64,000 bases of DNA from the sequence record OP795442; one strand, given 5' to 3'. Below are positions 6,872 to 47,938 of the stretch, one piece after another (positions within the stretch are counted from its first letter, which is position 1; the number at the start of each line of letters is the position of its first letter). The position numbers and the translations under genes are program-made. Origin of the DNA: Escherichia phage A7_1. Under the pieces are notes generated by a model. The model saw only the letters and a list, made by a program, of their open reading frames with translations. It searched no databases and had not been told where the DNA came from.

Positions 6872-7104
6872 CGAGTACCTCCAAAAATATTTAAAGCTTT
6901 AGAATAATCAATGTGACCTGGAACAGTGTGGGCCTCTTGTACAAGGCATTGCCGACAAATACGTGACACAACTGTTGTCTTGATCTCTTCTGTATCGTAG
7001 AAGCGAGACATTACCTTTGTAACTTGATTACATTGAGTAATAACAAAATCGTGTTTACAACTTGGTTTGTTTTCTTCAGTTTCTTTCTTTTTAAAAGGCC
7101 ACAT
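6868..7104 (-). CDS. small zinc-ribbon-like protein
   Basis: 78 aa; CxxC-like cysteine pairs (CKHD...CNQ, CRQC). Confidence 0.45.
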   Translation of the reverse strand: MWPFKKKETEENKPSCKHDFVITQCNQVTKVMSRFYDTEEIKTTVVSRICRQCLVQEAHTVPGHIDYSKALNIFGGTR

Positions 7105-7112
7105 GGTGACTC

Positions 7113-7295
7113 CTATTCTTCAACTATTTCGTATTCATCTTTCAAGAGCATAAATTGATAGCCCTTGCCCTTATTCGCAATAATAGTACCAGACGCGCTT
7201 TCTTTTGTCACGAAAAGAATTGAATCTTTTTGGACACCGTAATACTTAAGTTGCTCAAGCAGTTTGGTCTTTGATTCTAAGATTTTGACTTTCAT
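7113..7295 (-). CDS. hypothetical small protein
   Basis: Track ORF, 60 aa. Confidence 0.4.
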   Translation of the reverse strand: MKVKILESKTKLLEQLKYYGVQKDSILFVTKESASGTIIANKGKGYQFMLLKDEYEIVEE

Positions 7296-7552
7296 CAGAT
7301 ATCAATTACTACGATTTCAAGCATTGAATTTTCAACAGCTTCCTTAAGCTCATCGTATACAATAATAGACCAATCATTGTTAAGATTACCTTTGATCAGT
7401 TTGGCTATCTGTTCTAACGAGGTCACAAAAGGTGTGTCACTCTCGTTATTGGAAAGACTTAACTTTGTATGGATAAAGCCATCATCGTCGGCAGTCTGCC
7501 AAAATGAAACAAATTCACCACTGACTTTATGTTTTGCTGAGTAAAATTTCAT
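7295..7552 (-). CDS. hypothetical protein
   Basis: Track ORF, 85 aa. Confidence 0.45.
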   Translation of the reverse strand: MKFYSAKHKVSGEFVSFWQTADDDGFIHTKLSLSNNESDTPFVTSLEQIAKLIKGNLNNDWSIIVYDELKEAVENSMLEIVVIDI

Positions 7553-7573
7553 TTAATTATCCTCTCTGCCAGT

Positions 7574-7840
7574 TTATAACTTTTCTTTACCTAAAGTAAG
7601 ACTAATTTCGAAAGTTTTTGTTATAACTTTGTCGTCTTTGTCGAAGAAATCGAATTGGACATAACTCTCGGTCGAACTGACAACCAGACCTACAGAGACA
7701 GTCCCTTCTGGTACGAGAGCCTTATATTCTTCTTTTAGCACAACGTCGTAAAAATACAACGCTCCACAATAAACTTCATCCCAACCATCAAAAGATTCGA
7801 TGAAAGCTTTTTCAATACCAACTAAAGTATTTTCTGACAT
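7574..7840 (-). CDS. hypothetical protein
   Basis: Track ORF, 88 aa. Confidence 0.45.
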   Translation of the reverse strand: MSENTLVGIEKAFIESFDGWDEVYCGALYFYDVVLKEEYKALVPEGTVSVGLVVSSTESYVQFDFFDKDDKVITKTFEISLTLGKEKL

Positions 7841-7863
7841 TATATTATCCTCTTCGTTTCAAG

Positions 7864-8130
7864 TTAGATATAGTCTACACCAGCTTGTTCCAACAAGTCA
7901 AGTCTCAATTTAAGTTCTTTTTCACGATAATCGGAAACAAGTTTATCCTTTTTCTTTTCTTCTTCCTCAAACTGTTCGAGAGGAAGAATACGAATAATGT
8001 GTTCTGCCTTCATGTAGGACGTTGAACCAATAAGCTGAACATTACCATTTGGTAACAATCGGCCCTTGATCACCCGATAACGAGGGAACAAGTCATATTT
8101 AACAATCGCGGTAACTGCTAGATTACTCAT
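7864..8130 (-). CDS. hypothetical protein
   Basis: Track ORF, 88 aa. Confidence 0.45.
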   Translation of the reverse strand: MSNLAVTAIVKYDLFPRYRVIKGRLLPNGNVQLIGSTSYMKAEHIIRILPLEQFEEEEKKKDKLVSDYREKELKLRLDLLEQAGVDYI

Positions 8131-8449
8131 GTGTATTCTCCATATCGCGAATTCGATCTTCTACCCAACCACGACGATAAATGTTGAGGTAAGATTTACC
8201 TTTTGAACCATGATGGGCATATTCGTCAAAATCAAAATCGAAAGGTGTCTCGGTGTTAAGACCTGCATCAAAGAATTGATTCTTCATTTCGAATTGCACT
8301 TTCATATCTGGATCATTTTTACCTAAAAATGAGGACAAATTAAAACAAAGGCCAGCACCTCGGTAAAAAGCCCCATCTTTTGGTGCACCGATATCTAACC
8401 ATTTTTTATATTCTCGGTAGAAATTCAGAAGTTGCGGACTGCTTTTCAT
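8123..8449 (-). CDS. hypothetical protein (paralogue of 18204..18500)
   Basis: Track ORF 8123..8500 begins at a TTG inside a palindrome; likely start is the ATG about 51 nt downstream (MKSSPQLL) behind a GAGGAG SD; shares WLD-GAP / GLC / F-DAGLN / PFD motifs with 18204..18500. Confidence 0.5.
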   Translation of the reverse strand: MKSSPQLLNFYREYKKWLDIGAPKDGAFYRGAGLCFNLSSFLGKNDPDMKVQFEMKNQFFDAGLNTETPFDFDFDEYAHHGSKGKSYLNIYRRGWVEDRIRDMENTHE

Positions 8450-8470
8450 TTTGTTCTCCTCATTTGTTTT

Positions 8471-8498
8471 GATAGGACTACTATAACATAGTCCTATC
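8471..8498. promoter_or_regulatory. perfect 9-bp inverted repeat (GATAGGACT / AGTCCTATC) in the leader of gene 8123..8449
   Basis: Read directly; 10-nt spacer; no flanking T-run so not a terminator; possible operator or RNA structure. Confidence 0.4.
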
Positions 8499-8582
8499 AA
8501 CTTGTATACTATTTAATTAAAGATTTTATGAATACTTGGTAGGACCCTTCTTTAAATACTCATCTGGATAATAAAAATCATC

Positions 8583-8960
8583 CTATACTCCAAATGTGGA
8601 TTTGATTTCAGCAATAACCTCATGCACATTGTTTTCGTTTACTTCAAATGTGTAGGACGTTGGTTTAAGGAACGTCTGAGGTGAAACATTAACAAAGAAT
8701 TCAAATTCATCATCAAAAATTTCAAAGTATTTTCCCGGTGTTGATTCTTGACTTTTGAAAACAGTACCATCTTCCATAGTAACAGAAGAAACAGATTTTT
8801 CACCAAGGGTGTATGTTTTTAACTCATCAACAACGAAACTAGGACCGTGACGACGTAGTATTTCAACCATAGTTCGGTTGGCCCCGCAAATACCTGTCCG
8901 CTTAATAAATAACTCTTCACACCGAGGATTGAGAATATAAGTTTTTCCTACTTGCATCAT
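8583..8960 (-). CDS. hypothetical protein, tandem paralogue 1 of 3
   Basis: 125 aa; N-terminus M-x-(V/I)-GKTY-x-LN shared with the next two genes. Confidence 0.55.
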   Translation of the reverse strand: MMQVGKTYILNPRCEELFIKRTGICGANRTMVEILRRHGPSFVVDELKTYTLGEKSVSSVTMEDGTVFKSQESTPGKYFEIFDDEFEFFVNVSPQTFLKPTSYTFEVNENNVHEVIAEIKSTFGV

Positions 8961-8970
8961 AACAACCCCC

Positions 8971-9330
8971 TTAGGATAAGTTAAATGTGGATTTGATCAG
9001 GTCGATAGTTTCTTGTGCGTTTTGCTCAGATACTGACACCTGGATAATTTTAAGATCACTGACCTCTTCGAAGTATTTGAACTCAGATTCACGAAGTTCA
9101 AAGTACATTGCCCCACAGCCCACACTGAATGAATCACACCCTACAGCACCATCTTCTGTTGTGATGTTATTAACATACTCATCACCTTCGATCATACTCA
9201 TGTTATTAACAATAAATCGCGGCCCGTGCTCATCCAGAAAAGAAACAATCTCGTGATTGTAACTTGGGTCAGCCTTAATAAATTCTTCCACGAATTTTGG
9301 ATTAAGTTTATAAGTTTTACCTACTTCCAT
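8971..9330 (-). CDS. hypothetical protein, tandem paralogue 2 of 3
   Basis: 119 aa; aligns with 9342..9716 (GKTY, HGP-F-VNN, EDG, YFEL-ESEF, NAQET-DLIK-TFNL). Confidence 0.55.
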   Translation of the reverse strand: MEVGKTYKLNPKFVEEFIKADPSYNHEIVSFLDEHGPRFIVNNMSMIEGDEYVNNITTEDGAVGCDSFSVGCGAMYFELRESEFKYFEEVSDLKIIQVSVSEQNAQETIDLIKSTFNLS

Positions 9331-9341
9331 CTTTGTTCTCC

Positions 9342-9716
9342 TTACGCCAGGTTAAAGGTAGCTTTAATCAAATCTAAAGTTTCTTGTGCATTACTACGAG
9401 AGACGGCAACCTGAATAATAACAGGGTCTTCATCTTCCCCGACTTCTTTGAAGAAGGGAAATTCACTCTCTGCAAGTTCAAAGTATACACACTTGTTACC
9501 TTCGCAGTCGTGAAAAACGTCACTACCTAAAGTACCATCTTCAAATATGACATTGTTAACATATGCAACATTATCATAGAAGTGGGTGGTGTTGACAACA
9601 AATTTAGGACCGTGCTTATAAATAAGGTCAACCAATTCTTGATTGTAGCTAGGGTCCATATTGATAAAAGCTTTTTCTAAGTCTTTATTAAGAATGTAAG
9701 TTTTTCCGATTTCCAT
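9342..9716 (-). CDS. hypothetical protein, tandem paralogue 3 of 3
   Basis: 124 aa; same motif set. Confidence 0.55.
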   Translation of the reverse strand: MEIGKTYILNKDLEKAFINMDPSYNQELVDLIYKHGPKFVVNTTHFYDNVAYVNNVIFEDGTLGSDVFHDCEGNKCVYFELAESEFPFFKEVGEDEDPVIIQVAVSRSNAQETLDLIKATFNLA

Positions 9717-9729
9717 CTTTGCTCTCCTC

Positions 9730-9905
9730 TTATTTGTTGATGAATTGGCTAAGGATTTCGATAAGATCTTTAGCTTGTTTCTTGTCGAGAATCACGCTGT
9801 CTCCTGCATGGCAGATTTCAATAACATCCTCTTCTGCATGATATTCAACTTCCTTTGCATGAAAATCTTCAGTTTCTTTAATCACTTTTACAATGCGCTG
9901 TGTCA
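9730..9905 (-). CDS. small protein (about 58 aa, not in track)
   Basis: Hand-translated MTQRIVKVIKETEDFHAKEVEYH...; GGGAGAG SD upstream; approximate coordinates. Confidence 0.4.
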
Positions 9906-10016
9906 TCTTGTTTCTCTCCCTTTCTCTCTTTCATCGTTTAGTTTCGATAAGGTGATAGTACATCAACTAACCAATTATTATTTAGCAATTAGTGCTAAAC
10001 GCCATAATCAATCTTA

Positions 10017-10259
10017 TTAATTTTCATTTAATACCCTTAGTGCTCTCTTTTCACAAATATCCCTGAGCCTGATTACCTCTCCTATTAGATAGGAAATAGC
10101 CTTAGCTTGTACTGGTTCATCGTAATCCCCAACCGTCCCAAACACTTCATCGAGAGATAGGAAGAACTCTGAAGAGTAAATACTGTTTTGATCTTCTATA
10201 GCACGGTCTGCATTAAATTTAATATCTTCCAGGGCGCTATTACTGATATTCATAGTCAA
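10017..10259 (-). CDS. hypothetical protein
   Basis: Track ORF, 80 aa. Confidence 0.45.
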   Translation of the reverse strand: MTMNISNSALEDIKFNADRAIEDQNSIYSSEFFLSLDEVFGTVGDYDEPVQAKAISYLIGEVIRLRDICEKRALRVLNEN

Positions 10260-10681
10260 ACTCCATAATCTATCTTAACAAGCTTCCCTTTGTAGTATCC
10301 AAAGTTTTTAGGAAATGCGTCGTACTCGAAGAAATCTCGGTCAAGGGTTCTATCTTTATCGTTATCAATCTCATCATAAAGTTTTTGTAGATCAGCTGTA
10401 AATAATTCCTTATTCTCTACTGATTTAGCCTTGTGCATCACAACCATAAGTCCGAATCTGTTTGAGTAAGCTATTGGGCATAGATGCGGGTTATTATACC
10501 CTTTCCACTGACCCTCTGTCATATTGCTGAGCATTCCCTGAACAAACGCCTTCCATGAATTAAATCTTGGGAACTTAATCGCATACTTGTTTGTGATTAT
10601 GACAATTCTCGTCCCACCACTCCTGTTTATCTGCATCTTAATATCTCCAGACCTCGTTACTTGTTTCGATGAGGGCATCAT
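10256..10681 (-). CDS. hypothetical protein
   Basis: Track ORF, 141 aa. Confidence 0.5.
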   Translation of the reverse strand: MMPSSKQVTRSGDIKMQINRSGGTRIVIITNKYAIKFPRFNSWKAFVQGMLSNMTEGQWKGYNNPHLCPIAYSNRFGLMVVMHKAKSVENKELFTADLQKLYDEIDNDKDRTLDRDFFEYDAFPKNFGYYKGKLVKIDYGV

Positions 10682-10723
10682 ACCAGAATGAATCTGTGTG
10701 TCAACACTTTTTATTCAGATAAT

Positions 10724-10750
10724 AAAAAACCACCCCGAAGGGTGGTTTAA
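10724..10750. terminator. bidirectional terminator
   Basis: Hairpin accaccccgaagggtggt with A-run before and T-run after. Confidence 0.75.
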
Positions 10751-10751
10751 A

Positions 10752-11276
10752 TTAATTGCACAGGATGGTCTTTATAGCTGCATCAACTTCTGGACCTTCC
10801 TTACCGATAAAAGAAGCAAGACCCTTAAGTTTACAGGCTTCATACACTGCCCTAGCTTCTTCTTTTGTCCTGTATCTCCCAATATGTTTTTTGTTGATCT
10901 TGACCCTCCATTTCTGGCGATCTTCTTCCCAAGATATGCCTTTTCTTTTTGTCCAGTAACGATTAAGGTCACCGGAGATAAACAGGCAGGTTTCTGGTGA
11001 ATATACCTTACCGCCTTTTAAATCTTTATCAAGGCACTTCCCCTTCCAATCCTTTGTTTGCATCCACGCTTTGAAATTGCTAAACCTGAGCCACTCTTCA
11101 CAGACGGTAGTCCCCTCATAAGAGGGGTCCCTTGACAAAGCGCCCTGATCGTAACAACGTTGAAGCATACTCATCCATCGCATGTAGAATGGGCACATCT
11201 TTTCGTCTGGCCTAACATTGTAACCTGCGTCGTTTATACCCTTTCCGTAAACCATAAAAAACTCCTTATAAATCAA
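10752..11276 (-). CDS. AP2-like DNA-binding domain protein, homing-endonuclease-related
   Basis: C-terminal ISWEEDRQKWRVKINKKHIGRYRTKEEARAVYEA resembles AP2 domains of phage homing endonucleases; no clear HNH or GIY-YIG catalytic motif seen. Confidence 0.5.
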   Translation of the reverse strand: MIYKEFFMVYGKGINDAGYNVRPDEKMCPFYMRWMSMLQRCYDQGALSRDPSYEGTTVCEEWLRFSNFKAWMQTKDWKGKCLDKDLKGGKVYSPETCLFISGDLNRYWTKRKGISWEEDRQKWRVKINKKHIGRYRTKEEARAVYEACKLKGLASFIGKEGPEVDAAIKTILCN

Positions 11277-11282
11277 TAACTA

Positions 11283-13937
11283 CTAATGGCACGCCCCCCA
11301 GTTCATCCCTGTGAGGTATTCTCCAGTTATCATCACTGGTGATTTCATCATCTTAGCTGCTTGTTCGACACAACGAACAACCATCTCTCCTACAGGGCAG
11401 TATGTAATAGTGAAGATACCATTTTCATCAGGATCACACTTAAACTTCCCTTCTTTCACACAATGACCATCTAAGACCATCTTCTTAGCCAAGCAAGCTT
11501 CTACAAATTTTTTCGCGTCAGCTTCGTTGTCAAAGGTCCAGGTCTTCTTGAACTTGTGTGGCACTTCAAGCTGGTATTCATCATGATAGTAAATGATACG
11601 GCGAACACCTTCATCATACCAACCTTTCTTAACCAACTGCCAGTGCAGGAGGATACCTACCAAGTCAAACAGTGCAGCACCACCATTCTGCTGATAAGCA
11701 TTAAGCAATGAGTGTTTGGAACGAGTGTAGATCTTACGTCCATCAAGACCGTAGATGAATCGCTTACCGTTAGCTTCCCAAAACTTCTCTAGTGCTTCTT
11801 TACGACCTTTCAAGCCGATGTTGCTATCCCAGAATGCGTCGATTACTGCCTGGGCCTTCTCAAGAGTGATCCCCAGCATTGATGCAATCTTCGCTGCCTG
11901 TGCCCCGTACATAATTCCGTATGTCACACCTTTACCTTCACCACGAGAAACCTTCTTCCCTGCCGCTTTGGTATACGCTTCTGCGTTTCGGGAGTGAGCA
12001 TCTCCAGATTCCATGATACGAAGATAAGCGCCACCATCGAAATCATACGCGCCCCATGCCGCGATCATACCTTCCAAGTTTGAACCGTCGATACCTACCT
12101 GATATTTACCCTCGGAGGCTCTAAACAGTTCACGCATCTCTTTACCGAGAAGAACTTTCTCATCCGGCTTAGGTACGTTTGCTACGATCGTATGCTTACG
12201 ACGACCTGTGTTAGTTATTCCACTATAACGGGCCGGAAGTTTACCGTCAACCCGTAGACGTGGATGGTTAAGCCATCCGGTATCAACCTTCTCTTCTTTC
12301 AGTGGGTCAAGAACAGATCGTCGGTTACGTAAAGACAGCCATTTAACAATCTGTTTAGCCATTTCACCATCTACTCGCTCAAGGTTAGGGCAAAGACCCT
12401 GCTGATCCTTAAGTTGTGGAGATGTTGGTAATGCACGGGCTTTCTTCCTGAAGAACTTATACATCTTCTCTTTATCTTGCCACTGCTTACCACTGATACC
12501 TAAACTTTTCAGAATCAGATCGCGATATTCAGTCTGGTCAAGATCATCAATATATTGACGAACAATGATATCGACTTCGTTATCGGGACGTTGTTTCTTA
12601 AACTGGTCCTTCGTCGCATCTTTAGTTCGCCACAATGTTGGGACCCAACCAGCATCACGAATAAGGAATTTTTTAACGTCATCCTGATTACCAATACGCA
12701 TCGGGATCATAATGTCCGGCATCTTTTGTTCTTTGATATCCATCAAAGCACGAGCCATATCTTCCGGCGGCAAAGGAACAAGCCCTTGCTGCTTAACGTT
12801 TTGTGCACGGATAAAATCACCCATTTTGGATTCATCTTCTACACCGTGTTCAACACAATACTTGATCGCGGCGGCAGTAAGAGATCCGTCAGCCTTAAAC
12901 GGCTTACTTGGTGCACCTTTAAACTCTAATGCTTCCCAATTGATATTATAACCTAACTTCTCTAACCATTTCCAACCTGTACCGGAAAGAGATCCATCAC
13001 CCTTGAAAGGCTTAGATGGGAATGTCGGTTGTGCTGATTTCGACATTTCTTTCTTCGGTAACTTAGGTTCAACCTCTAACTCAATGTCTGTCATCATCTT
13101 ATCGATACGATCACGGAGCTTGAGTGCTTTTTCTTCATCAAATGAAACACCCTGAATCTCTTGCTCAATCATCAGGTAGTCGGTCAGCATACCTCGACGC
13201 AGGGCATTCTTCCAGTTGATCATTTTAAACTTCTTCTGATCTTTGTCTGTTTCATCCTTAAACATGAAGCGTTTATCATCTGGCATGGATTCACAAGAGA
13301 TCTCTTTCATCAGAGCATCCCACACCATTTCGTTGATAATTACGTCTTCAATAATACGATCGCAATATTTCCAAAGTGGAAGGCCACGCCAATCTTCAAT
13401 CGCCACTTTCTGGTTGGCTACTCGCATACCCCAAGCTTCAAGCCCGTGAGGGCCTACAGGCTTCATTTTACCTGTGACTGGGTTCTTTACCATCTCGGGA
13501 CAACCACGAGGCAGAGGGCGATCTGGATACAATGTACGGGACATTGAAAGTGTATCGAAGATGTTTACTTGTTTACCATTAATCGTACCCATGCAACCAG
13601 GGTCTGCAAACATATCGTAAGTTGTTCCAAGCATCTTCTTAAACAACTGGAGGTCGTAGCCGAAGATGTTGTGGATAGCAATTGCTTTAGGCTCTGTGAC
13701 AAACCACTCGTTTAATTCCTCAATGGTCCGAATCTTAAAGTTTTTACCTTTAGATTGGATAAATTTAACAGCTTGATCGTAACCTTCCCGCTGGGGATCA
13801 AGAAAGATGTTCCAGTTATCTTTTTTATACTCTTTAAACAAGACGCAGTGAATCAGATCAACCTCTGTCAATAGACCATTCGCTTCCGCATCTCCAATAA
13901 ATAAGCCTTTCATTTTTTCTCCTTCTTCAAGCTCCAA
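11283..13937 (-). CDS. DNA polymerase, family A, with 3'-5' exonuclease domain
   Basis: 884 aa; N-terminal FIGDAEANGL (Exo I D-x-E); motif A DGSNLEGM; motif B R-GEGKGVTYGIMYG; motif C YHDEYQLE. Confidence 0.9.
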   Translation of the reverse strand: MELEEGEKMKGLFIGDAEANGLLTEVDLIHCVLFKEYKKDNWNIFLDPQREGYDQAVKFIQSKGKNFKIRTIEELNEWFVTEPKAIAIHNIFGYDLQLFKKMLGTTYDMFADPGCMGTINGKQVNIFDTLSMSRTLYPDRPLPRGCPEMVKNPVTGKMKPVGPHGLEAWGMRVANQKVAIEDWRGLPLWKYCDRIIEDVIINEMVWDALMKEISCESMPDDKRFMFKDETDKDQKKFKMINWKNALRRGMLTDYLMIEQEIQGVSFDEEKALKLRDRIDKMMTDIELEVEPKLPKKEMSKSAQPTFPSKPFKGDGSLSGTGWKWLEKLGYNINWEALEFKGAPSKPFKADGSLTAAAIKYCVEHGVEDESKMGDFIRAQNVKQQGLVPLPPEDMARALMDIKEQKMPDIMIPMRIGNQDDVKKFLIRDAGWVPTLWRTKDATKDQFKKQRPDNEVDIIVRQYIDDLDQTEYRDLILKSLGISGKQWQDKEKMYKFFRKKARALPTSPQLKDQQGLCPNLERVDGEMAKQIVKWLSLRNRRSVLDPLKEEKVDTGWLNHPRLRVDGKLPARYSGITNTGRRKHTIVANVPKPDEKVLLGKEMRELFRASEGKYQVGIDGSNLEGMIAAWGAYDFDGGAYLRIMESGDAHSRNAEAYTKAAGKKVSRGEGKGVTYGIMYGAQAAKIASMLGITLEKAQAVIDAFWDSNIGLKGRKEALEKFWEANGKRFIYGLDGRKIYTRSKHSLLNAYQQNGGAALFDLVGILLHWQLVKKGWYDEGVRRIIYYHDEYQLEVPHKFKKTWTFDNEADAKKFVEACLAKKMVLDGHCVKEGKFKCDPDENGIFTITYCPVGEMVVRCVEQAAKMMKSPVMITGEYLTGMNWGACH

Positions 13938-39520: not shown

Positions 39521-40162
39521 ATGGCTATCTATGCAAAACTGAAAGAAAGTAAGAAAAGTTATTTTATTTCAATGGACCCATCTAACCGACGTATGATTGA
39601 AAATCATGGTGATCGATTCATTGTTCGACCTTCTGAGAATAACGATTCTTACTTACGTCCGGTGGGTCCACGTATTGAGGGTCAGTTCTTAACATCCCGA
39701 GATATCGAAGAGTATTTTACATTCTTCCCTGAATGGTCAGCAGAGTCAGCAGAATACATCGTTAACTTGGCGATCCCGCAGGGTCAGGTGTCTATTGATG
39801 ATCAGTATCTGTTGGGTGATTTAACTGGGGACTATAGAATTAAAACAAGCCACCCGAATATGTGGCGACTCTATAACAACTCTACTAACCCTGATGATTA
39901 TGTCCTAATCAAGCAGAGTAATTTGGAGAAATACTTCACCTTAGAGGAAGATTGCTTAAAGAGAGCATTGAATAAGTTTGACAATTACACCTCTTCTTCT
40001 TCTTCTTCTTCTTCTTCTGTTGAAAAGGAACAGGAACTCGCAGATGATGATGTTTTTGAATTGAAGATTAAACGCACAGTAAGGGTTAAGGATGCAGAAA
40101 TCACAGAGGACAATCTGGATCAGTTCATTGCACAGCTTACTAAACTGGTTAAAGGAGAATAA
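39521..40162 (+). CDS. hypothetical protein with poly-Ser tract
   Basis: 213 aa; internal run of 9 Ser encoded by a (TCT)n repeat. Confidence 0.55.
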   Translation: MAIYAKLKESKKSYFISMDPSNRRMIENHGDRFIVRPSENNDSYLRPVGPRIEGQFLTSRDIEEYFTFFPEWSAESAEYIVNLAIPQGQVSIDDQYLLGDLTGDYRIKTSHPNMWRLYNNSTNPDDYVLIKQSNLEKYFTLEEDCLKRALNKFDNYTSSSSSSSSSVEKEQELADDDVFELKIKRTVRVKDAEITEDNLDQFIAQLTKLVKGE

Positions 40163-43124: not shown

Positions 43125-43460
43125 ATGGCACTAGTCACTAAGTATTTCATTGAAGGCCAGCAAGCGGCGCAACAAGGTTACAGCCGTGTTACTCGTTACA
43201 AGAAAGAAGAAAACAAGATTGAATTTTTCAAGGGTTACGATAGTGTAAACCGTGATGCAATGGTCCTACGCTTCGAATCCGATCCAGTGGGCAAGCCTGT
43301 TACCTCTTACCAGGCATCACCGCAGATTGTTTATGTTGGTACTGTTAAAGAATGTAACGACAAGTTAATCACTTTGAAGCAGGCCGATCGTGCGGGTTAC
43401 TTTGTTGTTTACACTGCTGACGGTAAGCCTTACCAGTACGAAAGCAAATATTTTAAATAA
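43125..43460 (+). CDS. hypothetical protein
   Basis: Track ORF, 111 aa. Confidence 0.55.
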   Translation: MALVTKYFIEGQQAAQQGYSRVTRYKKEENKIEFFKGYDSVNRDAMVLRFESDPVGKPVTSYQASPQIVYVGTVKECNDKLITLKQADRAGYFVVYTADGKPYQYESKYFK

Positions 43461-43466
43461 AAAGTA

Positions 43467-43523
43467 TTGACAGAAAGAAAGAAGTAAATTAAATTATACC
43501 ACGTAACGCCGCAATCGTGCGGC
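43467..43523 (+). promoter_or_regulatory. sigma70-like promoter plus 5' GC hairpin cassette
   Basis: TTGACA-17-TAAATT then hairpin gccgca-atcg-tgcggc. Confidence 0.55.
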
Positions 43524-43550
43524 AATAAAAACTGATAGGAATTGAACAAA

Positions 43551-43763
43551 ATGGCTAAAATCATCATTAAAAAATCCCGTGTATCTTCTGTTGCTCGCGT
43601 CGAAATGGTAAACACTATGCCAGGTTACCGGACTCGCGAGGAAGCCCGAAGCGTTGCAAAACAGATTAAAGCCCGTGGCTTAACTGTAAGTGCACCGACC
43701 AAAACACAAGAAGGATGGAAGGTATCTATTAAATCCGGTACACTGTCAATCAATAAACACTAA
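43551..43763 (+). CDS. hypothetical basic small protein
   Basis: Track ORF 43542 has a TTG start; ATG at 43551 (MAKIIIKKSR) is likelier. Confidence 0.5.
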   Translation: MAKIIIKKSRVSSVARVEMVNTMPGYRTREEARSVAKQIKARGLTVSAPTKTQEGWKVSIKSGTLSINKH

Positions 43764-43825
43764 TAGCCAAAACATTAACGGGGCAACTTTGCCCTCATTA
43801 AATAACATTATCCAGGAGTATTAAC

Positions 43826-43984
43826 ATGACTAGCCAAAACACTAACATTGAAAAAATCAACATTACTAAAGAGCGTAAAGCATGGAATGAAACATTAAAT
43901 CTCAAAGGTAAGAAGCTGAATAAAACTAAACGCGATCGCAGTACAAAGCGGGCCTTTTGTGAATTTACAGCGGATCAAGAGTGA
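43826..43984 (+). CDS. small basic protein (about 52 aa, not in track)
   Basis: MTSQNTNIEKINITKERKAWNETLNLKGKK... behind CCAGGAGT SD; approximate. Confidence 0.35.
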   Translation: MTSQNTNIEKINITKERKAWNETLNLKGKKLNKTKRDRSTKRAFCEFTADQE

Positions 43985-44175
43985 TGATTAAAGTTATTGC
44001 ACTTACTGCTTTATTGTGTATACCATTTTTGGCGCACGGTACTAAGTTTTACGGTGCTAACTTGATAGATTGTAAAGCTCATATGCTGGACCATGAAACA
44101 GGCAACAAATTTCTTAAGCCTTTCCAGATCAATCCAGCGGCATTTAGTGACCGGTGTTTTGTATCAGGAAGGTAA
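43984..44175 (+). CDS. small protein with signal-peptide-like N-terminus
   Basis: Track ORF 43981..44175; MIKVIALTALLCIPFLAHG. Confidence 0.45.
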   Translation: MIKVIALTALLCIPFLAHGTKFYGANLIDCKAHMLDHETGNKFLKPFQINPAAFSDRCFVSGR

Positions 44176-44287
44176 AGCCAGTACGCTGATAATGCATTAC
44201 GATCCGACAACAAAGAAAGGTAGTCTATCAATCCAGGTTGGAGAGGTGGAAGAGTTTTCCGGTGAAATAGTCTGTAATTAATATCTT

Positions 44288-44319
44288 GAGGCCCGTCATT
44301 GTACGGGCCTTTTTCTTTT
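44288..44319 (+). terminator. rho-independent terminator
   Basis: aggcccgtcattgtacgggcct followed by T-run. Confidence 0.8.
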
Positions 44320-44343
44320 ATGAAAATAATTTTGAAAATGTTG

Positions 44344-44411
44344 TTGACAGTAAAATCGATTCTGTTAAGATGTATCACATCAGGACGGGGAACGAAGTAA
44401 ACACTCCCCGT
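44344..44411 (+). promoter_or_regulatory. promoter plus hairpin cassette with no downstream ORF
   Basis: TTGACA-16/17-TAAGAT then acgggga...tccccgt hairpin; next start codon is after a second cassette. Confidence 0.5.
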
Positions 44412-44470
44412 TAAGTAGTCCAGGAGTAAGACATACGAAAAACTCCCCTGATAAAAAGATTTAAAAGTGG

Positions 44471-44527
44471 TTGACACAAAATTAAAAACTGTTAAGATGT
44501 ATCACATACGGCGGCAATAGTGCCGCC
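44471..44527 (+). promoter_or_regulatory. promoter plus 5' GC hairpin cassette
   Basis: TTGACA-16-TAAGAT then ggcggca-atag-tgccgcc. Confidence 0.6.
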
Positions 44528-44547
44528 TCCAACAAAGAGAAATTATC

Positions 44548-44799
44548 ATGGCTAACAAAACTAAAACCACTAAAACTTATAACGGTCACAAAAACAAAAA
44601 TCATTGGAACGTTTCTCTATGGCTTAACAATGATTCATCACTTTACCAGCTGGCGAAAGAATTTATTAACGCTAACACTAATCGTAATGATGCGGCGCGG
44701 GATATGATGATTTTTCTGGAACAAACTGGACAATATAAAACTCCAGACGGTTTCAAGTACAGCACTACGGCGATCCGTGCTGCAATGGTTGGAATGTAA
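44548..44799 (+). CDS. hypothetical protein (paralogue of 46366..46605)
   Basis: 83 aa; shares HWNVSLW and C-terminal TPDGFKYSTTAIRAAMVGM. Confidence 0.55.
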   Translation: MANKTKTTKTYNGHKNKNHWNVSLWLNNDSSLYQLAKEFINANTNRNDAARDMMIFLEQTGQYKTPDGFKYSTTAIRAAMVGM

Positions 44800-44817
44800 T
44801 ATTCAATACTGTAACAA

Positions 44818-44836
44818 TGGCGGGATTAGTTCCCGC
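44818..44836 (+). promoter_or_regulatory. 5' leader GC hairpin
   Basis: ggcggga-ttagt-tcccgcc. Confidence 0.5.
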
Positions 44837-44855
44837 CTTTGCGGAGAAATATCTA

Positions 44856-45143
44856 ATGAGCAAAGTAATTGACTGTAAAGTGTTAACCAAATCATTGTCA
44901 ATCAGTGAGTGCACCAATGGTTATTGGCTTTATGATGAAACACGCGGCATGAATCTAGCTATGGAAGCTAAAACGGCTGAGGCGGCGTATGTGCAAGCCC
45001 TGGAATACTACCAGAGACGTTTAAAGGAAGTAGAAAACAATTATCAGAATCTCAAAGAGAAAGTAGATCATTTCGTTGGTCAATTCGTTGACGATGACGA
45101 GGAAGACGGGCACTACTGCAACCGCTGCGGATCTTACAGTTAA
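44856..45143 (+). CDS. hypothetical protein
   Basis: Track ORF 44817 begins inside the hairpin; ATG at about 44856 behind GGAG is likelier (MSKVIDCKVL). Confidence 0.5.
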   Translation: MSKVIDCKVLTKSLSISECTNGYWLYDETRGMNLAMEAKTAEAAYVQALEYYQRRLKEVENNYQNLKEKVDHFVGQFVDDDEEDGHYCNRCGSYS

Positions 45144-45147
45144 GTAC

Positions 45148-45207
45148 TTGCAATTAGTTTTAAGTACTGTATAATGTTTTACATCGAGAGCGGGAATAGT
45201 TCCCGCC
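45148..45207 (+). promoter_or_regulatory. promoter plus 5' GC hairpin cassette
   Basis: TTGCAA-16-TATAAT then gcgggaa-tag-ttcccgc. Confidence 0.6.
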
Positions 45208-45229
45208 TCACATCAAAGAGATTAAAATT

Positions 45230-45457
45230 ATGGCTATCCTTATTGTTCGTGTATCCGGTACAGTTGGTAACTCCCAGGTTGTAGCAGTTGTAACAAGCAA
45301 AAAGATTAATGAATCTTCTAAAATCTTGAACGAATGGGCCGTTGCTAACTTTGGTCAATGGTCGAGCGTCGAGTATCTCGAATCTTACCAGGTGCCAACT
45401 ATTAGCCTAACCGATCTCAATGTTGATCGCCTGTTATGCCTGGATGAATTGATTTAA
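45230..45457 (+). CDS. hypothetical protein
   Basis: Track ORF, 75 aa. Confidence 0.5.
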   Translation: MAILIVRVSGTVGNSQVVAVVTSKKINESSKILNEWAVANFGQWSSVEYLESYQVPTISLTDLNVDRLLCLDELI

Positions 45458-45464
45458 AAAGTAG

Positions 45465-45524
45465 TTGCAAAGTAAAACGAATAAAGTATAATACATTACA
45501 TCAGGGGGAGAAATGATTCTCCCC
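45465..45524 (+). promoter_or_regulatory. promoter plus 5' GC hairpin cassette
   Basis: TTGCAA-16-TATAAT then gggggaga-aatga-ttctcccc. Confidence 0.6.
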
Positions 45525-45541
45525 ACTAAAAGGAAACTAAA

Positions 45542-45685
45542 ATGAAAACTTGTCAGTGTGGTAAAAAGTCTATTGCTGGTCTGCGTCGCGGTGTTGCTTT
45601 ATGCCAGTATCATTACAATAGTCAAGTATGGGGTAAAACGTGGGCTGACCAGGTTGAAGCAGCAAAGAAAGCAAAAAGTAATTGA
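45542..45685 (+). CDS. small Cys-rich protein (about 47 aa, not in track)
   Basis: MKTCQCGKKSIAGLRRGVALCQYHYNSQVW... behind AAGGA SD; the antisense track ORF 45570..45887 is rejected; approximate. Confidence 0.4.
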   Translation: MKTCQCGKKSIAGLRRGVALCQYHYNSQVWGKTWADQVEAAKKAKSN

Positions 45686-45738
45686 CAGCAAGAAGAAAAA
45701 GAGTAAACTGTATTACGTAGGGCGGCAATAGCGCCGCC
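45682..45738 (+). promoter_or_regulatory. promoter plus 5' GC hairpin cassette
   Basis: TTGACA then ggcggc-aatagc-gccgcc. Confidence 0.55.
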
Positions 45739-45762
45739 ACATCAAAGATAGAGAGAATCAAA

Positions 45763-45981
45763 ATGGCCAATATCCGCACTGTACTGAAAAATGCAAAACA
45801 AGTTTTATTTTCTGACGATGAATATTTTAATCGCAATATCAAAGGCGTTCGGAACATTGAGGATGTAAAGGAATTATTTGGAATCAAAGGTAACGTATAT
45901 CGTAAAGGATTGCACGGTAATAATTTTGAATATAAGTTGGCTGATAGTGATTATAATTTTACACTGACCACCATTAGTTGA
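45763..45981 (+). CDS. hypothetical protein
   Basis: Track ORF, 72 aa. Confidence 0.5.
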   Translation: MANIRTVLKNAKQVLFSDDEYFNRNIKGVRNIEDVKELFGIKGNVYRKGLHGNNFEYKLADSDYNFTLTTIS

Positions 45982-46000
45982 AAGTTTTAACCTAGCGCTA

Positions 46001-46029
46001 TTGACTTAAGCCGATAGTGCTGGCATAAT
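46001..46029 (+). promoter_or_regulatory. sigma70-like promoter (copy 1 of a duplicated promoter)
   Basis: TTGACT-17-CATAAT; about 40-bp leader nearly identical to the promoter at 46294. Confidence 0.6.
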
Positions 46030-46061
46030 AACTTTTATCAAGAACATCAAAGGAAAGTAAA

Positions 46062-46274
46062 ATGGCTATCATTACTAAAATCAAAGTAAACAAAACACTG
46101 GTTAAGCTGGAAGAAGTGAAAGCAGGTTATAAAGTATCTTGGTGTGGCATGTATCGGATGTTCACAGATATAGACGATGCAATCAATTACTACACTAACA
46201 CGATTAAAAACTTTGTTCGTGCTGATGTGATTATTGCAGTGGAAGCACATAAAGCATCGAAAGAAAGTAAGTAA
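46062..46274 (+). CDS. hypothetical protein
   Basis: Track ORF, 70 aa. Confidence 0.5.
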   Translation: MAIITKIKVNKTLVKLEEVKAGYKVSWCGMYRMFTDIDDAINYYTNTIKNFVRADVIIAVEAHKASKESK

Positions 46275-46293
46275 AATTATTACCACAGTACTA

Positions 46294-46322
46294 TTGACAA
46301 CTACTGATAGTACTGACATAAT
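46294..46322 (+). promoter_or_regulatory. sigma70-like promoter (copy 2 of a duplicated promoter)
   Basis: TTGACA-17-CATAAT followed by the same ataacttttatcaag leader. Confidence 0.6.
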
Positions 46323-46365
46323 AACTTTTATCAAGTAGTACAAATCAAAAAGAGAGAATATCATC

Positions 46366-46605
46366 ATGGCTAAATCTAAAACTTTCAACGATCACAAAAA
46401 CAAAACTCATTGGAATGTTTCCTTGTGGATTAATAATGGTGAAGCACTGTATCGGCTTGCTCAAAATTGCATTGCACAAAGTAAAACTAAAGATATTGCT
46501 GCGGAATGTATGTACCGCAGATTAAAAGCGAACGGCACTACAACAACGCCGGACGGATTTAAGTATAGCACCACTGCGATCCGTGCCGCGATGGTTGGAA
46601 TGTAA
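46366..46605 (+). CDS. hypothetical protein (paralogue of 44548..44799)
   Basis: 79 aa; HWNVSLW and C-terminal TPDGFKYSTTAIRAAMVGM shared. Confidence 0.55.
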   Translation: MAKSKTFNDHKNKTHWNVSLWINNGEALYRLAQNCIAQSKTKDIAAECMYRRLKANGTTTTPDGFKYSTTAIRAAMVGM

Positions 46606-46624
46606 AAAGAAAAAGTAAAAGTAG

Positions 46625-46682
46625 TTGACACAAAGAAACAAAACAAGTAAATTAATCACATCAGGCGGGGAATGGCCCCGCT
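46625..46682 (+). promoter_or_regulatory. promoter plus 5' GC hairpin cassette
   Basis: TTGACA-17-TAAATT then gcgggg-aatgg-ccccgc; nearly identical to the cassette at 48749. Confidence 0.65.
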
Positions 46683-46703
46683 AAAAGAGAAGAGAGAAAT
46701 CAA

Positions 46704-47036
46704 ATGAGCTTTTTATCTATCGTGCAGACTAACTTTGAAAATGATTTTATTGCTCAAGCTATCAACATTGACAAAGGTATCCCAAATATCAATTTTGGTT
46801 TTAATAGTGGTGGTTATGAGAGATACCAGTATTTTGTAACTGACGATGGAAGTGTTTTAGGTATCAATACGGTGATGGCTAATATCCAAAACATTAATTT
46901 CAATGATCCCGATGAGCGCTCATTCTATATCGTCGGTATCCAGGTGAACTACAATGATGACTCTTTAATCGATGATTACACTGGCGAGACGTTAGAGAGT
47001 GCTTACGGTGATGAATCAGAAGAAGAAGAAGAATAA
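46704..47036 (+). CDS. strongly acidic small protein
   Basis: 110 aa; many Asp/Glu, almost no Lys/Arg; ends DESEEEEE. Confidence 0.55.
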   Translation: MSFLSIVQTNFENDFIAQAINIDKGIPNINFGFNSGGYERYQYFVTDDGSVLGINTVMANIQNINFNDPDERSFYIVGIQVNYNDDSLIDDYTGETLESAYGDESEEEEE

Positions 47037-47050
47037 GATTAAAAAAGTAG

Positions 47051-47110
47051 TTGACTGAAAGAGTATAAAGAAGTAAGATAATTAACGAATAGGGGGAAAC
47101 ATCTTCCCCC
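47051..47110 (+). promoter_or_regulatory. promoter plus 5' GC hairpin cassette
   Basis: TTGACT-17-TAAGAT then ggggga-aacatc-ttccccc. Confidence 0.6.
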
Positions 47111-47136
47111 ATAAACAAAAGAAAGAGAGATTAAAA

Positions 47137-47319
47137 ATGACAGAACTGATTGCAACTACAAAGATCGAAGGCGTTAACGATGTTACTTTGTCCTATGATC
47201 CTTCTACTCTGGTTTATGTTGTGAAATATGGCAGAATGATCGCAGAACTTGATTGCATTGATGAGGCTTTCGAAAAATATTTCGAACTTATCAATATTGC
47301 TTATGATGACTACCGTTAA
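47137..47319 (+). CDS. hypothetical protein
   Basis: Track ORF, 60 aa. Confidence 0.5.
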   Translation: MTELIATTKIEGVNDVTLSYDPSTLVYVVKYGRMIAELDCIDEAFEKYFELINIAYDDYR

Positions 47320-47349
47320 TATACAACGCAAAAATAGAAAGGTGATAAA

Positions 47350-47559
47350 ATGATCAATGAAAAAACAATCAATGACGTTCGAGAGGAAGTTTTAGCCGTT
47401 GCCGTAGAATCTGGCGCACGTCAGGCATTTTGGAAAGCTACTGATCTTTACCCTGAGCAAGCCGAAAATATTCTCAATCAGGTCAGCGTTAAACTTGAAA
47501 AAATGGGAAAACTGAAAACAAGTGAGCGCCTCGACCAAATCATTAAAGAAAGTTTTTGA
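47350..47559 (+). CDS. hypothetical protein
   Basis: Track ORF, 69 aa. Confidence 0.5.
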   Translation: MINEKTINDVREEVLAVAVESGARQAFWKATDLYPEQAENILNQVSVKLEKMGKLKTSERLDQIIKESF

Positions 47560-47596
47560 TTGACTTTTAACATTGCCCCTATTAGTATTCAGGGGC
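47560..47596 (+). promoter_or_regulatory. promoter overlapped by a hairpin
   Basis: TTGACT-17-TAGTAT with gcccct...aggggc stem spanning the -10 element. Confidence 0.5.
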
Positions 47597-47623
47597 AAGA
47601 TTAAAAGAAACAAGGACACAAAG

Positions 47624-47935
47624 ATGAATGATATTGTTAGCATCATAGGTTTACTCGGCATAGGTTACATCGCCACATCAATTACAATGAGTTACTTCAA
47701 TAAAAGGCGTGATAAAATGTTTTGTTACTTTGAATACCGTTACCGTGGTAAGGTTGGATCATCCCGTGACTATGGTCCGATGTTAGAGATTGATGCGGTA
47801 GGAGCAATGCAGTATCGCCAGTCACTTGGGGCTGAGATAATTTTTGAAGTGTACCGCAGTACAGAAGAAGAGATCCACGACATTATTGACGAGCGTCAAT
47901 ATTACCACGAACAACAAACTAAACGCAGGGCTTAA
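47624..47935 (+). CDS. small membrane protein
   Basis: Track ORF 47573 begins in the promoter; ATG at about 47624 (MNDIVSIIGLLGIGYIATSI) is likelier. Confidence 0.5.
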   Translation: MNDIVSIIGLLGIGYIATSITMSYFNKRRDKMFCYFEYRYRGKVGSSRDYGPMLEIDAVGAMQYRQSLGAEIIFEVYRSTEEEIHDIIDERQYYHEQQTKRRA

Positions 47936-47938
47936 CAT

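What the first reader, a model, noticed from the sequence alone, without database searches (positions are those of the whole stretch)
8583..9716. Three tandem paralogous genes of about 120 aa
Three consecutive leftward genes share the N-terminal M-x-(V/I)-GKTY-x-LN motif and a conserved C-terminus (NAQET-DLIK-TFNL), with divergent middles. Tandem triplication with divergence is typical of arms-race loci such as anti-defence or specificity factors.
Basis: seen in the sequence. Interest (0 to 1): 0.45.

Follow-up and report, generated by a model that had tools for sequence, protein, structure and literature searches.

The report
Three tandem T4 Frd.2-family genes
The three neighbouring genes are real, diverged copies of the phage T4 "Frd.2" protein family, which has a predicted fold but no known function; here they sit in an unrelated E. 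coli phage that probably acquired them from T4-like phages, so the finding is a modest extension of a known family and not a new system.

Summary
**Observation:** confirmed. Three leftward ORFs lie at 8583-8960, 8971-9330 and 9342-9716. They are homologous along their whole length, with BLASTP E-values of 3e-20 to 3e-42.

**What they are:** not orphans. All three match Pfam PF03197 (FRD2) at 68-74 bits against a cut-off of 29, and all three match phrog_622. They therefore belong to the T4 Frd.2 family, which a 2025 paper groups with T4 GoF and MotB.1.

**The genome:** the window comes from a Septuagintavirus (subfamily Vequintavirinae).
- All five sequenced relatives keep three copies.
- T4-like phages carry one or two.
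- Three other Vequintavirinae have none in the 6 kb after their polymerase gene.

**Origin of the copies:**
- Copies 2 and 3 are sister duplicates.
- Copy 1 belongs to a separate T4-like subtype.
- A T4-type promoter/stem-loop cassette sits at the downstream edge of the array.

**Expression:** the genes are packed 10-11 nt apart behind a sigma-70-type promoter, which points to early expression.

**Selection:** orthologues evolve under purifying selection (dN/dS 0.04-0.31).

**Structure:** the AlphaFold2 model has pLDDT 89.7. It shows an SH3-like small beta-barrel followed by a C-terminal strand-helix tail, and no solved structure is a significant match. The family is strongly acidic (median pI 4.5).

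**Function:** unproven. My best guess is an early host-takeover factor that binds a protein of the transcription or mRNA-turnover machinery. An anti-defence role is not excluded.

**Verdict:** a new member of a known kind, of modest interest.

The parts
9342..9716 (-). Copy 3: Frd.2-family gene, 124 aa, pI 4.4. First of the three in the direction of transcription.
   Evidence: ORF. PF03197 E 1.3e-18 (67.9 bits, cut-off 29). phrog_622 E 8e-22. AF2 model pLDDT 89.7. RBS GAGGAG upstream.
8971..9330 (-). Copy 2: Frd.2-family gene, 119 aa, pI 4.3. Sister of copy 3.
   Evidence: ORF. PF03197 E 1.3e-20. 52% identical to copy 3, E 3e-42. c2+c3 clade has 95% bootstrap.
8583..8960 (-). Copy 1: Frd.2-family gene, 125 aa, pI 5.1. 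Belongs to the 'HGPSF' subtype shared with T4-like (Mosigvirus-type) phages.
   Evidence: ORF. PF03197 E 3.5e-20. Best non-Septuagintavirus hits are T4-like phages at 46% identity. 98% bootstrap clade with the T4-like proteins.
10677..10748 (-). Terminator hairpin (AAACCACCC-TTCG-GGGTGGTTT, then a T-run) followed by a sigma-70-type promoter (TTGACA-16-TATGAT). This is the likely start of the transcript that carries the 141-aa, 80-aa and 58-aa genes and then copies 3, 2 and 1.
   Evidence: In UPEC06, A73 and LTH01 the same cassette type (TTGACA-N17-TAAGAT) lies directly upstream of copy 3. No terminator-like site was found on the minus strand between it and copy 1.
9730..10681 (-). Three small accessory genes (141 aa at 10256-10681, 80 aa at 10017-10259, 58 aa at 9730-9906) lying between the promoter cassette and copy 3. 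They are present only in this phage and A5-4.
   Evidence: The 141-aa protein is 77% identical to a protein of T4-like phage vB_EcoM_G4507.
8440..8530 (-). T4-type intergenic cassette: AT-rich region, a weak promoter-like site, a 13-bp hairpin at about 8471-8498, then RBS and ATG of the next gene. It marks the downstream boundary of the Frd.2 module.
   Evidence: - 78-89% DNA identity to an element present at up to 10 places per T4-like genome.
- In LF82-1 the element sits between that phage's two Frd.2 genes, and the homology ends right after ATGAAAA.
- The hairpin has a z-score of -3.3.
- It occurs once in the window.
- The next gene (8123-8449) is a native Vequintavirinae multi-copy family.
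39521..40162 (+). Possible fourth, very distant relative: 213 aa, with the motif FISMDPSN..MIENHGDRFIV. Not established.
   Evidence: hmmsearch with the family HMM gives E 2e-5 among 679 window ORFs. hhalign gives only 53% probability over 32 columns. The AF2 model is unusable, pLDDT 44.9.

Best explanation
**Identity (shown).** The three genes are diverged paralogues of the phage T4 Frd.2 family (Pfam PF03197, phrog_622). This family is the sister of T4 GoF and MotB.1.

**Origin (inferred).**
- They sit in a Septuagintavirus (Vequintavirinae) genome.
- The family otherwise occurs almost only in T4-like phages.
- It was most likely imported from a T4-like donor into the plastic region downstream of the DNA polymerase gene.
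- One copy then duplicated in place to give copies 2 and 3.
- Copy 1 represents a second T4-like subtype.

**Expression (inferred from sequence).** The three are co-transcribed from a host-type sigma-70 promoter, and so are probably made early.

**Protein (predicted).** Each is a small, strongly acidic two-part protein. An SH3-like/Sm-like five-stranded beta-barrel carries a two-helix insertion, and a short C-terminal strand-helix tail follows.

**Mechanism (inference, about 0.3-0.35).**
- They act as early host-takeover modulators.
- Each uses its barrel to bind a protein or ribonucleoprotein of the transcription/mRNA-turnover machinery, not naked RNA. This follows the genetics of the relative GoF.
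- The three diverged copies would supply three binding specificities.
For: **Family membership.**
- PF03197 scores 68-74 bits against a cut-off of 29.
- phrog_622 matches over the full length.
- tblastn finds 649 phage records. 644 of them are below 60% identity, and every one of those shown in the 60-row sample is a T4-like phage; they include annotated frd.2 genes of T4, RB69, Bp7 and JS10.

**Link to GoF and MotB.1.**
- The family HMM reaches a Karamvirus 'goF mRNA metabolism modulator'.
- Foldseek against BFVD retrieves GoF (E 1.2e-4) and T4 MotB.1 P39415 (E 1.9e-4).
- This reproduces PMC12152347.

**Fold.**
- The AF2 model has pLDDT 89.7 with strands at 6-9, 38-47, 50-58, 63-65 and 89-92.

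**Real, selected genes.**
- dN/dS is 0.04-0.31 among orthologues.
- All five relatives keep three copies.

**Import and duplication.**
- No family member lies in the 6 kb after the polymerase gene in Certrevirus POP17, PMBT16 or SEW_6S.
- The tree topology supports separate origins for copy 1 and for copies 2+3.
- A T4-type cassette sits at the module boundary.
- The neighbouring 141-aa gene is 77% identical to a T4-like phage protein.

**Early operon.**
- A terminator plus TTGACA-N16/17 promoter cassette lies upstream.
- Gaps between the genes are 10-11 nt, each with an RBS.
- T4 Frd.2 is described as an early protein (PMC12152347).

**Protein binding preferred over RNA binding.**
- The family has a median pI of 4.5 and a median net charge of -11.
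- Wild-type GoF and MotB.1 had no strong effect on reporter RNA; only the GoF D25Y mutant did (PMC12152347).

**Some fitness role.** T4 frd.2 was the only 'Fit' gene of unknown function in the CRISPRi-ART screen (PMC11879866).
Against: - No member of the Frd.2 branch has any demonstrated biochemical activity.
- T4 frd.2 amber mutants plate normally (PMC12152347).
- The CRISPRi-ART signal is marginal: score 0.83, p = 0.027, against 3.3 for gene 32.
- Acidity argues only indirectly against RNA binding.
- Early timing rests on promoter consensus, not on data.
- The direction of horizontal transfer is inferred from distribution alone.
Confidence: 0.5

Rival explanations
1. **Anti-defence or specificity array.** Each paralogue neutralises a different host immune protein or allele. 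The array grew by duplication and gene capture under an arms race.
For: - The locus lies in a hyperplastic accessory region bordered by promoter/stem-loop cassettes that mediate gene shuffling in T4-like phages (PMC2839356).
- Copy 1 is replaced by a different allele in LTH01.
- Family members show N-terminal/C-terminal domain mosaics.
- Copy number varies from 1 to 3.
- The proteins are small, acidic and early, which is typical of phage inhibitor proteins (my own knowledge).
- Amino-acid variation among copy 3 orthologues clusters at residues 43-51 and 67-76, which map to the beta2-beta3 hairpin and to the irregular segment after beta4 in the model.
Against: - dN/dS is 0.04-0.31 with no excess of replacement changes.
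- All three copies are retained in every close relative.
- The family is almost universal in T4-like phages, whereas counter-defence genes are usually patchy.
- T4 frd.2 knock-down gave a mild defect in a laboratory strain.
- No literature links it to any defence system.
Confidence: 0.2
2. **Direct RNA chaperones of the LSm/Hfq type.** The barrels assemble into rings or dimers and bind phage or host RNAs, changing their stability or translation.
For: - PMC12152347 predicts an LSm-like fold for the Frd.2 N-terminal domain.
- That paper shows that GoF(D25Y) stabilises a gene-41 leader reporter RNA.
- Weak Foldseek matches include the Edc3 LSm domain.
Against: - Net charge is -5 to -13 for the three copies, and the family median pI is 4.5.
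- Wild-type GoF and MotB.1 had little effect on the reporter. Frd.2 itself was not reported in that assay.
- The two-helix insertion between the first two strands is unlike canonical Sm proteins.
Confidence: 0.12
3. **RNA-polymerase-docking Tudor-like domains.** The barrel mimics the RNAP-interacting domains of CarD, Mfd and UvrD and binds the beta-subunit lobe, modulating elongation or termination.
For: - goF mutations were isolated as suppressors of T4's failure to grow on rho mutants (PMC12152347).
Against: - Foldseek against the PDB finds nothing significant.
- Published work concluded that GoF(D25Y) acts post-transcriptionally.
Confidence: 0.1
4. **Decaying duplicates with no function.**
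For: Paralogues are highly diverged, with synonymous sites saturated (dS > 1.7).
Against: - All reading frames are intact with an RBS.
- Purifying selection acts on each copy separately.
- The copies are conserved in five genomes from Ireland, Uganda and China.
Confidence: 0.02

Closest known systems
Phage T4 Frd.2 (Pfam PF03197 'Bacteriophage FRD2 protein', phrog_622)
   Same: - Full-length homology at 33-36% identity, with shared signature motifs (GK.Y, N, G..F.V, YFE..EF..F.E, V...N....L..TF).
- The same size, about 120-130 aa.
- Acidic.
- Lies in a small-gene accessory block near replication genes.
- Preceded by an early-type promoter.
   Different: - The host genome is a Vequintavirinae phage, not a T4-like one.
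- There are three copies instead of one.
- The core motif is HGP(S/K/R)F instead of T4's NGGWF.
- The acidic linker before the C-terminal strand-helix is shorter.
frd.2a/frd.2b tandem pairs of T4-like phages (JS10, SP18, LF82-1 and related Mosigvirus-type phages)
   Same: - Tandem arrangement of diverged paralogues.
- Copy 1 clusters with the LF82-1-type proteins.
- Copies 2 and 3 group weakly with JS10 frd.2a / SP18 frd.2b.
- The same intergenic promoter/stem-loop cassette is associated with the genes.
   Different: - Three copies here, not two.
- The pairs in T4-like phages lie after gene 32, between it and frd. Here the array lies after the DNA polymerase gene.
T4 GoF (comC-alpha) and MotB.1, the 'LSm-like fold' family of Kim et al. 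2025 (PMC12152347)
   Same: - The predicted N-terminal small beta-barrel is shared: Foldseek E about 1e-4 to GoF and MotB.1 models.
- An HMM-level link to GoF-like proteins exists.
- These are also early, non-essential proteins.
   Different: - Different C-terminal domains.
- No detectable pairwise sequence identity to T4 GoF or MotB.1.
- The only functional data, RNA stabilisation, concern a GoF gain-of-function mutant.
PeSL cassettes (promoter-early stem-loop) of T4-like phages (PMC2839356, PMC4122927)
   Same: The 8440-8530 element is an intergenic composite of an AT-rich/promoter-like sequence and a stable hairpin. It is repeated many times in T4-like genomes, and here it lies exactly at the junction between imported and native genes.
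   Different: - Its stem is AT-rich, not the typical GGGG/CCCC.
- The promoter match is weak, 9 of 12.
- It occurs once only in this window.

Membership tests
Pfam PF03197 FRD2 / T4 Frd.2 | Score above the curated gathering threshold of the family model | tested here: met
   73.0, 74.3 and 67.9 bits against a cut-off of 29, covering model positions 2-95 of 96.
Pfam PF03197 FRD2 / T4 Frd.2 | Full-length similarity to bona fide Frd.2 proteins, including the N-terminal 30 residues that the Pfam model does not cover | tested here: met
   phrog_622 aligns residues 1-123. tblastn to T4, RB69, Bp7 and JS10 frd.2 covers 98-99% of the query.
GoF/MotB.1/Frd.2 'LSm-like fold' family (PMC12152347) | N-terminal bent five-stranded antiparallel beta-barrel followed by a separate C-terminal element | tested here: met
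   Prediction only. The AF2 model has pLDDT 89.7, five strands within residues 6-92 and helix 107-120.
GoF/MotB.1/Frd.2 'LSm-like fold' family (PMC12152347) | Structural similarity to GoF and MotB.1 | tested here: met
   Foldseek against BFVD: GoF of phage VR7 at E 1.2e-4 and T4 P39415 (MotB.1) at E 1.9e-4.
GoF/MotB.1/Frd.2 'LSm-like fold' family (PMC12152347) | Early expression from host-RNAP promoters | tested here: inconclusive
   Sigma-70 consensus promoters lie upstream. There are no expression data.
Canonical Sm/LSm/Hfq RNA chaperones | Closest structural neighbours are Sm/Hfq proteins | tested here: not met
Canonical Sm/LSm/Hfq RNA chaperones | RNA binding and ring oligomerisation | not testable with these tools
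   The acidic pI of 4.3-5.1 argues against it only indirectly.
PeSL regulatory cassette (for the 8440-8530 element) | Intergenic composite of a sigma-70-like promoter and a stable stem-loop, repeated in T4-like genomes next to accessory genes | tested here: met
   The hairpin has z = -3.3. The element occurs at up to 10 places per T4-like genome. The promoter-like site matches 9 of 12 positions and has a TG.
PeSL regulatory cassette (for the 8440-8530 element) | G/C-rich (GGGG...CCCC) stem acting as a terminator | tested here: not met
   The stem is GATAGGACTA/TAGTCCTATC with no U-tract. It resembles the AT-rich variants that PMC2839356 mentions for the IP loci.
Anti-defence protein (generic) | Patchy presence among close relatives and/or positive selection | tested here: not met
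   All five relatives keep three copies. dN/dS is 0.04-0.31. One allelic replacement, LTH01 copy 1, is the only sign of turnover.
Anti-defence protein (generic) | Inhibition of a defined defence system | not testable with these tools
   No library of anti-defence proteins was available. The PADLOC scan, which holds defence proteins, found nothing meaningful.

The most novel reading that the evidence does not exclude
The Frd.2/GoF/MotB.1 barrels are phage-made mimics of the Tudor-like RNA-polymerase-interacting domains of CarD, Mfd and UvrD. They would dock on the RNAP beta lobe early in infection, either to alter elongation and Rho-dependent termination or to block host factors that use that site. 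The three diverged copies in this phage would then be a set of docking variants. This reading would explain the old goF/rho genetics and give a function to a family present in nearly every T4-like phage.
Probability: 0.08. Interest if true: 0.7.

Novelty: new member of a known kind. Interest (0 to 1): 0.3.

Why it matters
- Frd.2 is one of the most conserved T4 early genes still without a function. It was the only 'Fit' gene of unknown function in a genome-wide T4 knock-down screen (PMC11879866).
- The family was not found in the 6 kb downstream of the polymerase gene in three other Vequintavirinae. Where it was imported, it was expanded to three copies, and each copy is kept under purifying selection. 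This shows that it confers a portable benefit that does not depend on the T4 genetic background.
- The three natural variants are ready-made material for partner-finding experiments.
- Beyond that, the locus is a tidy example of cassette-mediated gene flow between unrelated lytic coliphages. It is not a new kind of system.

Tried and rejected
1. **T4 Frd.3 or Frd.1 as a truncated paralogue.**
   - The idea arose because 80-aa 'DUF5417' proteins were listed in the same 90% cluster as P0009.
   - Translating T4 frd.3 and frd.1 showed unrelated sequences.
   - The shared cluster is an artefact.
2. **Solved structures by sequence.** Nothing was found below E 0.047.
3. **PADLOC.** The only hit was a chance Csm4 match at E 0.006.
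4. **Rfam on 7000-11500.** Nothing approached a gathering score.
5. **afdb50 fold search.** The library was unavailable.
6. **IMG/VR scan for more loci.** Only two loci were found, one with two copies, so no wider copy-number census was possible.
7. **The 213-aa ORF at 39521-40162 as a fourth member.**
   - Only five near-identical homologues exist.
   - The AF2 model has pLDDT 44.9.
   - The question is left open.
8. **Giant bacterial proteins and a repeat protein in the representative search (P0063, P0066, P0074, P0076, P0078).** On inspection these look like chance matches of short beta-hairpin motifs.
9. **GC content as evidence of foreign origin.** The three genes have 36-38% GC, the same as the neighbouring native small genes, so this is not informative.

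Full report
**1. The observation**

One search lists three minus-strand ORFs at exactly the reported coordinates:

| Copy | Coordinates | Length |
|---|---|---|
| 1 | 8583-8960 | 125 aa |
| 2 | 8971-9330 | 119 aa |
| 3 | 9342-9716 | 124 aa |

Each has a Shine-Dalgarno sequence 5-9 nt before its ATG. The gaps between the genes are only 10-11 nt.

The three proteins align along their whole length, with 35 invariant columns. BLASTP gives:
- c1/c2: 37% identity, E 3e-20.
- c1/c3: 35% identity, E 2e-19.
- c2/c3: 52% identity, E 3e-42.

Shuffled controls reach at most 22 bits, against 65 bits observed.

That criterion is not met. Two details need correcting. The C-terminal motif NAQET-DLIK-TFNL belongs to copies 2 and 3 only. 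The 'divergent middle' is still alignable.

**2. What genome this is**

The surrounding DNA is 93-97% identical to Escherichia phages A5-4, A73, W70, UPEC06 and LTH01. These belong to the genus Septuagintavirus, subfamily Vequintavirinae. In all of them the three genes are annotated as 'hypothetical protein'. The paper that describes the genus does not mention them.

**3. What the genes are**

- All three proteins match Pfam PF03197, 'Bacteriophage FRD2 protein', at 68-74 bits against a gathering score of 29.
- All three match phrog_622 over their full length.
- tblastn with copy 3 finds 649 phage records. Five are the Septuagintavirus relatives. The other 644 are below 60% identity, and those listed are T4-like phages, among them the annotated frd.2 genes of T4, RB69, Bp7 and JS10.
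- The family is small: 45 clusters at 50% identity among 1.84 billion representative proteins.

A 2025 paper (PMC12152347) groups T4 Frd.2 with GoF and MotB.1 as early, non-essential proteins with a predicted N-terminal 'LSm-like' beta-barrel. I reproduced that link in two independent ways:
- A profile built from the window's proteins reaches a Karamvirus protein named 'goF mRNA metabolism modulator'. That protein in turn hits phrog_622 at E 9.5e-19.
- The AlphaFold2 model of copy 3 retrieves GoF (E 1.2e-4) and T4 MotB.1 (E 1.9e-4) from the viral structure library.

**4. Structure**

The model of copy 3 was built with a 38-sequence alignment and has pLDDT 89.7.
- It shows five strands (6-9, 38-47, 50-58, 63-65, 89-92).
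- Two helices (11-35) are inserted after the first strand.
- A C-terminal helix spans residues 107-120.

Comparison with solved structures gives little:
- Foldseek against the PDB finds nothing at E <= 0.001.
- A sequence search of the PDB finds nothing.

The fold is therefore a generic small beta-barrel, and its subtype and partner cannot be read from structure. The whole family is strongly acidic, with median pI 4.5 and median net charge -11. The three copies have net charges of -5, -13 and -13.

**5. Evolution of the array**

*Tree.* A neighbour-joining tree of 43 family members places copies 2 and 3 as sisters (95% bootstrap). Copy 1 sits in a clade (98% bootstrap) with an 'HGPSF' subtype found in T4-like phages such as LF82-1.

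*Paralogues and orthologues.*
- Synonymous sites between the paralogues are saturated (dS > 1.7).
- Orthologues across the five genomes give dN/dS of 0.04-0.31.
- Each copy is therefore old and individually maintained.

*Copy number at the loci examined* (annotations):

| Phage or locus | Copies |
|---|---|
| T4 | 1 |
| JS10 | 2 |
| LF82-1 | 2 |
| IMG/VR contig L008 | 2 |
| Each of the four Septuagintavirus relatives examined | 3 |

Tandem frd.2a/frd.2b pairs are already annotated in JS10 and SP18.

*Other Vequintavirinae.* Three of them (Certrevirus POP17, PMBT16, SEW_6S) have no family member in the 6 kb downstream of their polymerase gene.

*Signs of turnover.*
- LTH01 carries a different allele at the copy 1 position. 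It is 50% identical and has the T4-type C-terminus.
- T-even phages show N-terminal/C-terminal domain mosaics, for example P0007 against P0039.

**6. Boundaries and regulation**

*Upstream.*
- In UPEC06, A73 and LTH01, copy 3 directly follows the polymerase stop codon, a terminator hairpin and a TTGACA-N17-TAAGAT promoter.
- This promoter is of the same type as the repeated cassettes in the window's 43-54 kb region.
- In this window and in A5-4, three more small genes (141, 80 and 58 aa) lie between the equivalent cassette (10677-10748) and copy 3.
- The 141-aa protein is 77% identical to a protein of a T4-like phage.

*Downstream.*
- Just after copy 1, an 85-bp element at about 8440-8530 is 78-89% identical to an intergenic element. 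That element occurs at up to ten places per T4-like genome.
- In LF82-1 it lies between that phage's two Frd.2 genes. The homology with the window stops right after ATGAAAA of the next gene.
- The element contains a 13-bp hairpin (z = -3.3) and occurs once in the window.
- The next gene (8123-8449) belongs to a native, multi-copy Vequintavirinae family.

This matches the footprint described for PeSL cassettes, which mediate modular gene shuffling in T4-like phages (PMC2839356, PMC4122927). The stem here is AT-rich, not GGGG/CCCC.

Together with the family's distribution, these boundaries support import of the Frd.2 module from T4-like phages. This step is an inference.

**7. How it most likely works**

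*Shown:*
- Family membership.
- The predicted barrel.
- Purifying selection.
- An operon-like layout behind a host-type promoter.

*From the literature:*
- T4 Frd.2 is an early protein, and frd.2 amber mutants plate normally (PMC12152347).
- A dCas13d knock-down classed frd.2 as the only 'Fit' T4 gene of unknown function (PMC11879866). The score is marginal: 0.83, p = 0.027.
[quoted passage not shown] Wild-type GoF and MotB.1 do little in the reporter assay.

*Inferred:* these are early host-takeover modulators aimed at the transcription/mRNA-turnover machinery. Because they are so acidic, I favour binding to a protein or ribonucleoprotein over binding to free RNA. The three copies would provide different specificities. 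I put this mechanism at about 0.3-0.35 and the identity at above 0.95.

*Rivals:*
- An anti-defence array (0.2).
- True LSm-type RNA chaperones (0.12).
- RNAP-lobe-docking Tudor mimics (0.1).
- Functionless duplicates (0.02).

**8. Novelty and verdict**

- The family is catalogued and tandem pairs are annotated, so this is not a new kind of element.
- Three things appear to be unreported: its presence outside T4-like phages, the three-copy array, and the cassette footprint at its edge.
- I rate it a new member of a known kind, interest 0.3.
- The most novel reading not excluded is the RNAP-docking idea (probability about 0.08).

Noticed in passing
window 8440-8530 (-): A T4-type promoter/stem-loop cassette lies between copy 1 and the next gene. 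It is 78-89% identical to an element repeated up to 10 times per T4-like genome, and it occurs once in this window. The homology to LF82-1 ends at the start codon of a native Vequintavirinae gene.
   Followed up: yes
window 8531-8582: The spacer after copy 1 keeps the first ~15 nt (ATGATTTTTATTAT) and the last ~30 nt (…CATAAAATCTTTAATTAAATAG) of an 80-aa gene that is intact in phage A5-4 (A54_267). It is therefore a deletion remnant.
   Followed up: partly
window 43459-54104 (+): At least seven repeated cassettes lie upstream of small rightward genes. Each has an A-rich tract, TTGACA-N17-TAAATT/TAAGAT, then a GC hairpin (GGCGGGG-AATG-CCCCGCC) and an RBS. These look like the phage's own PeSL-like early promoter/stem-loop units (families D1-D6).
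   Followed up: no
window 39521-40162 (+): A 213-aa ORF with a run of nine serines and the motif FISMDPSN..MIENHGDRFIV. It is a weak match to the Frd.2 family HMM (E 2e-5 in the window) with hhalign probability 53%. Its homologues occur only in Septuagintavirus, and the AF2 model is unusable (pLDDT 44.9).
   Followed up: yes
window 10256-10681 (-): A 141-aa protein (phrog_4301) that is 77% identical to a protein of T4-like phage vB_EcoM_G4507. It has distant homologues in jumbo phages, one of them annotated as a serine/threonine kinase. Among the close relatives it is present only here and in A5-4.
   Followed up: partly
window 10752-13937 (-): The DNA polymerase gene is intact here (884 aa) with an HNH endonuclease gene immediately downstream. 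In A5-4, A73 and LTH01 the polymerase gene is split by an inserted gene.
   Followed up: no
L004 3010-3399 (phage LTH01): Copy 1 is replaced by a 129-aa allele only 50% identical to the window's copy 1. It carries the T4-type C-terminus VSGVAKVHCVVDENNVDEIIKLLQKTFKK. Related T-even proteins (P0007 against P0039) share an N-terminal domain but have different C-termini, which indicates domain-level mosaicism.
   Followed up: partly
window 62035-62144: A perfect 55-nt tandem duplication (family D9).
   Followed up: no
window 44570-44799 and 46376-46605 (+): Two stretches 1806 nt apart share 76-85% DNA identity (families D4 and D8). This indicates another pair of paralogous small genes in the rightward early region.
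   Followed up: no
window 8123-8449 (-): The 108-aa gene after the array belongs to a family present in 2-6 copies per genome in phAPEC8-like and other Vequintavirinae-related phages. It is another multi-copy small-gene family of unknown function.
   Followed up: no
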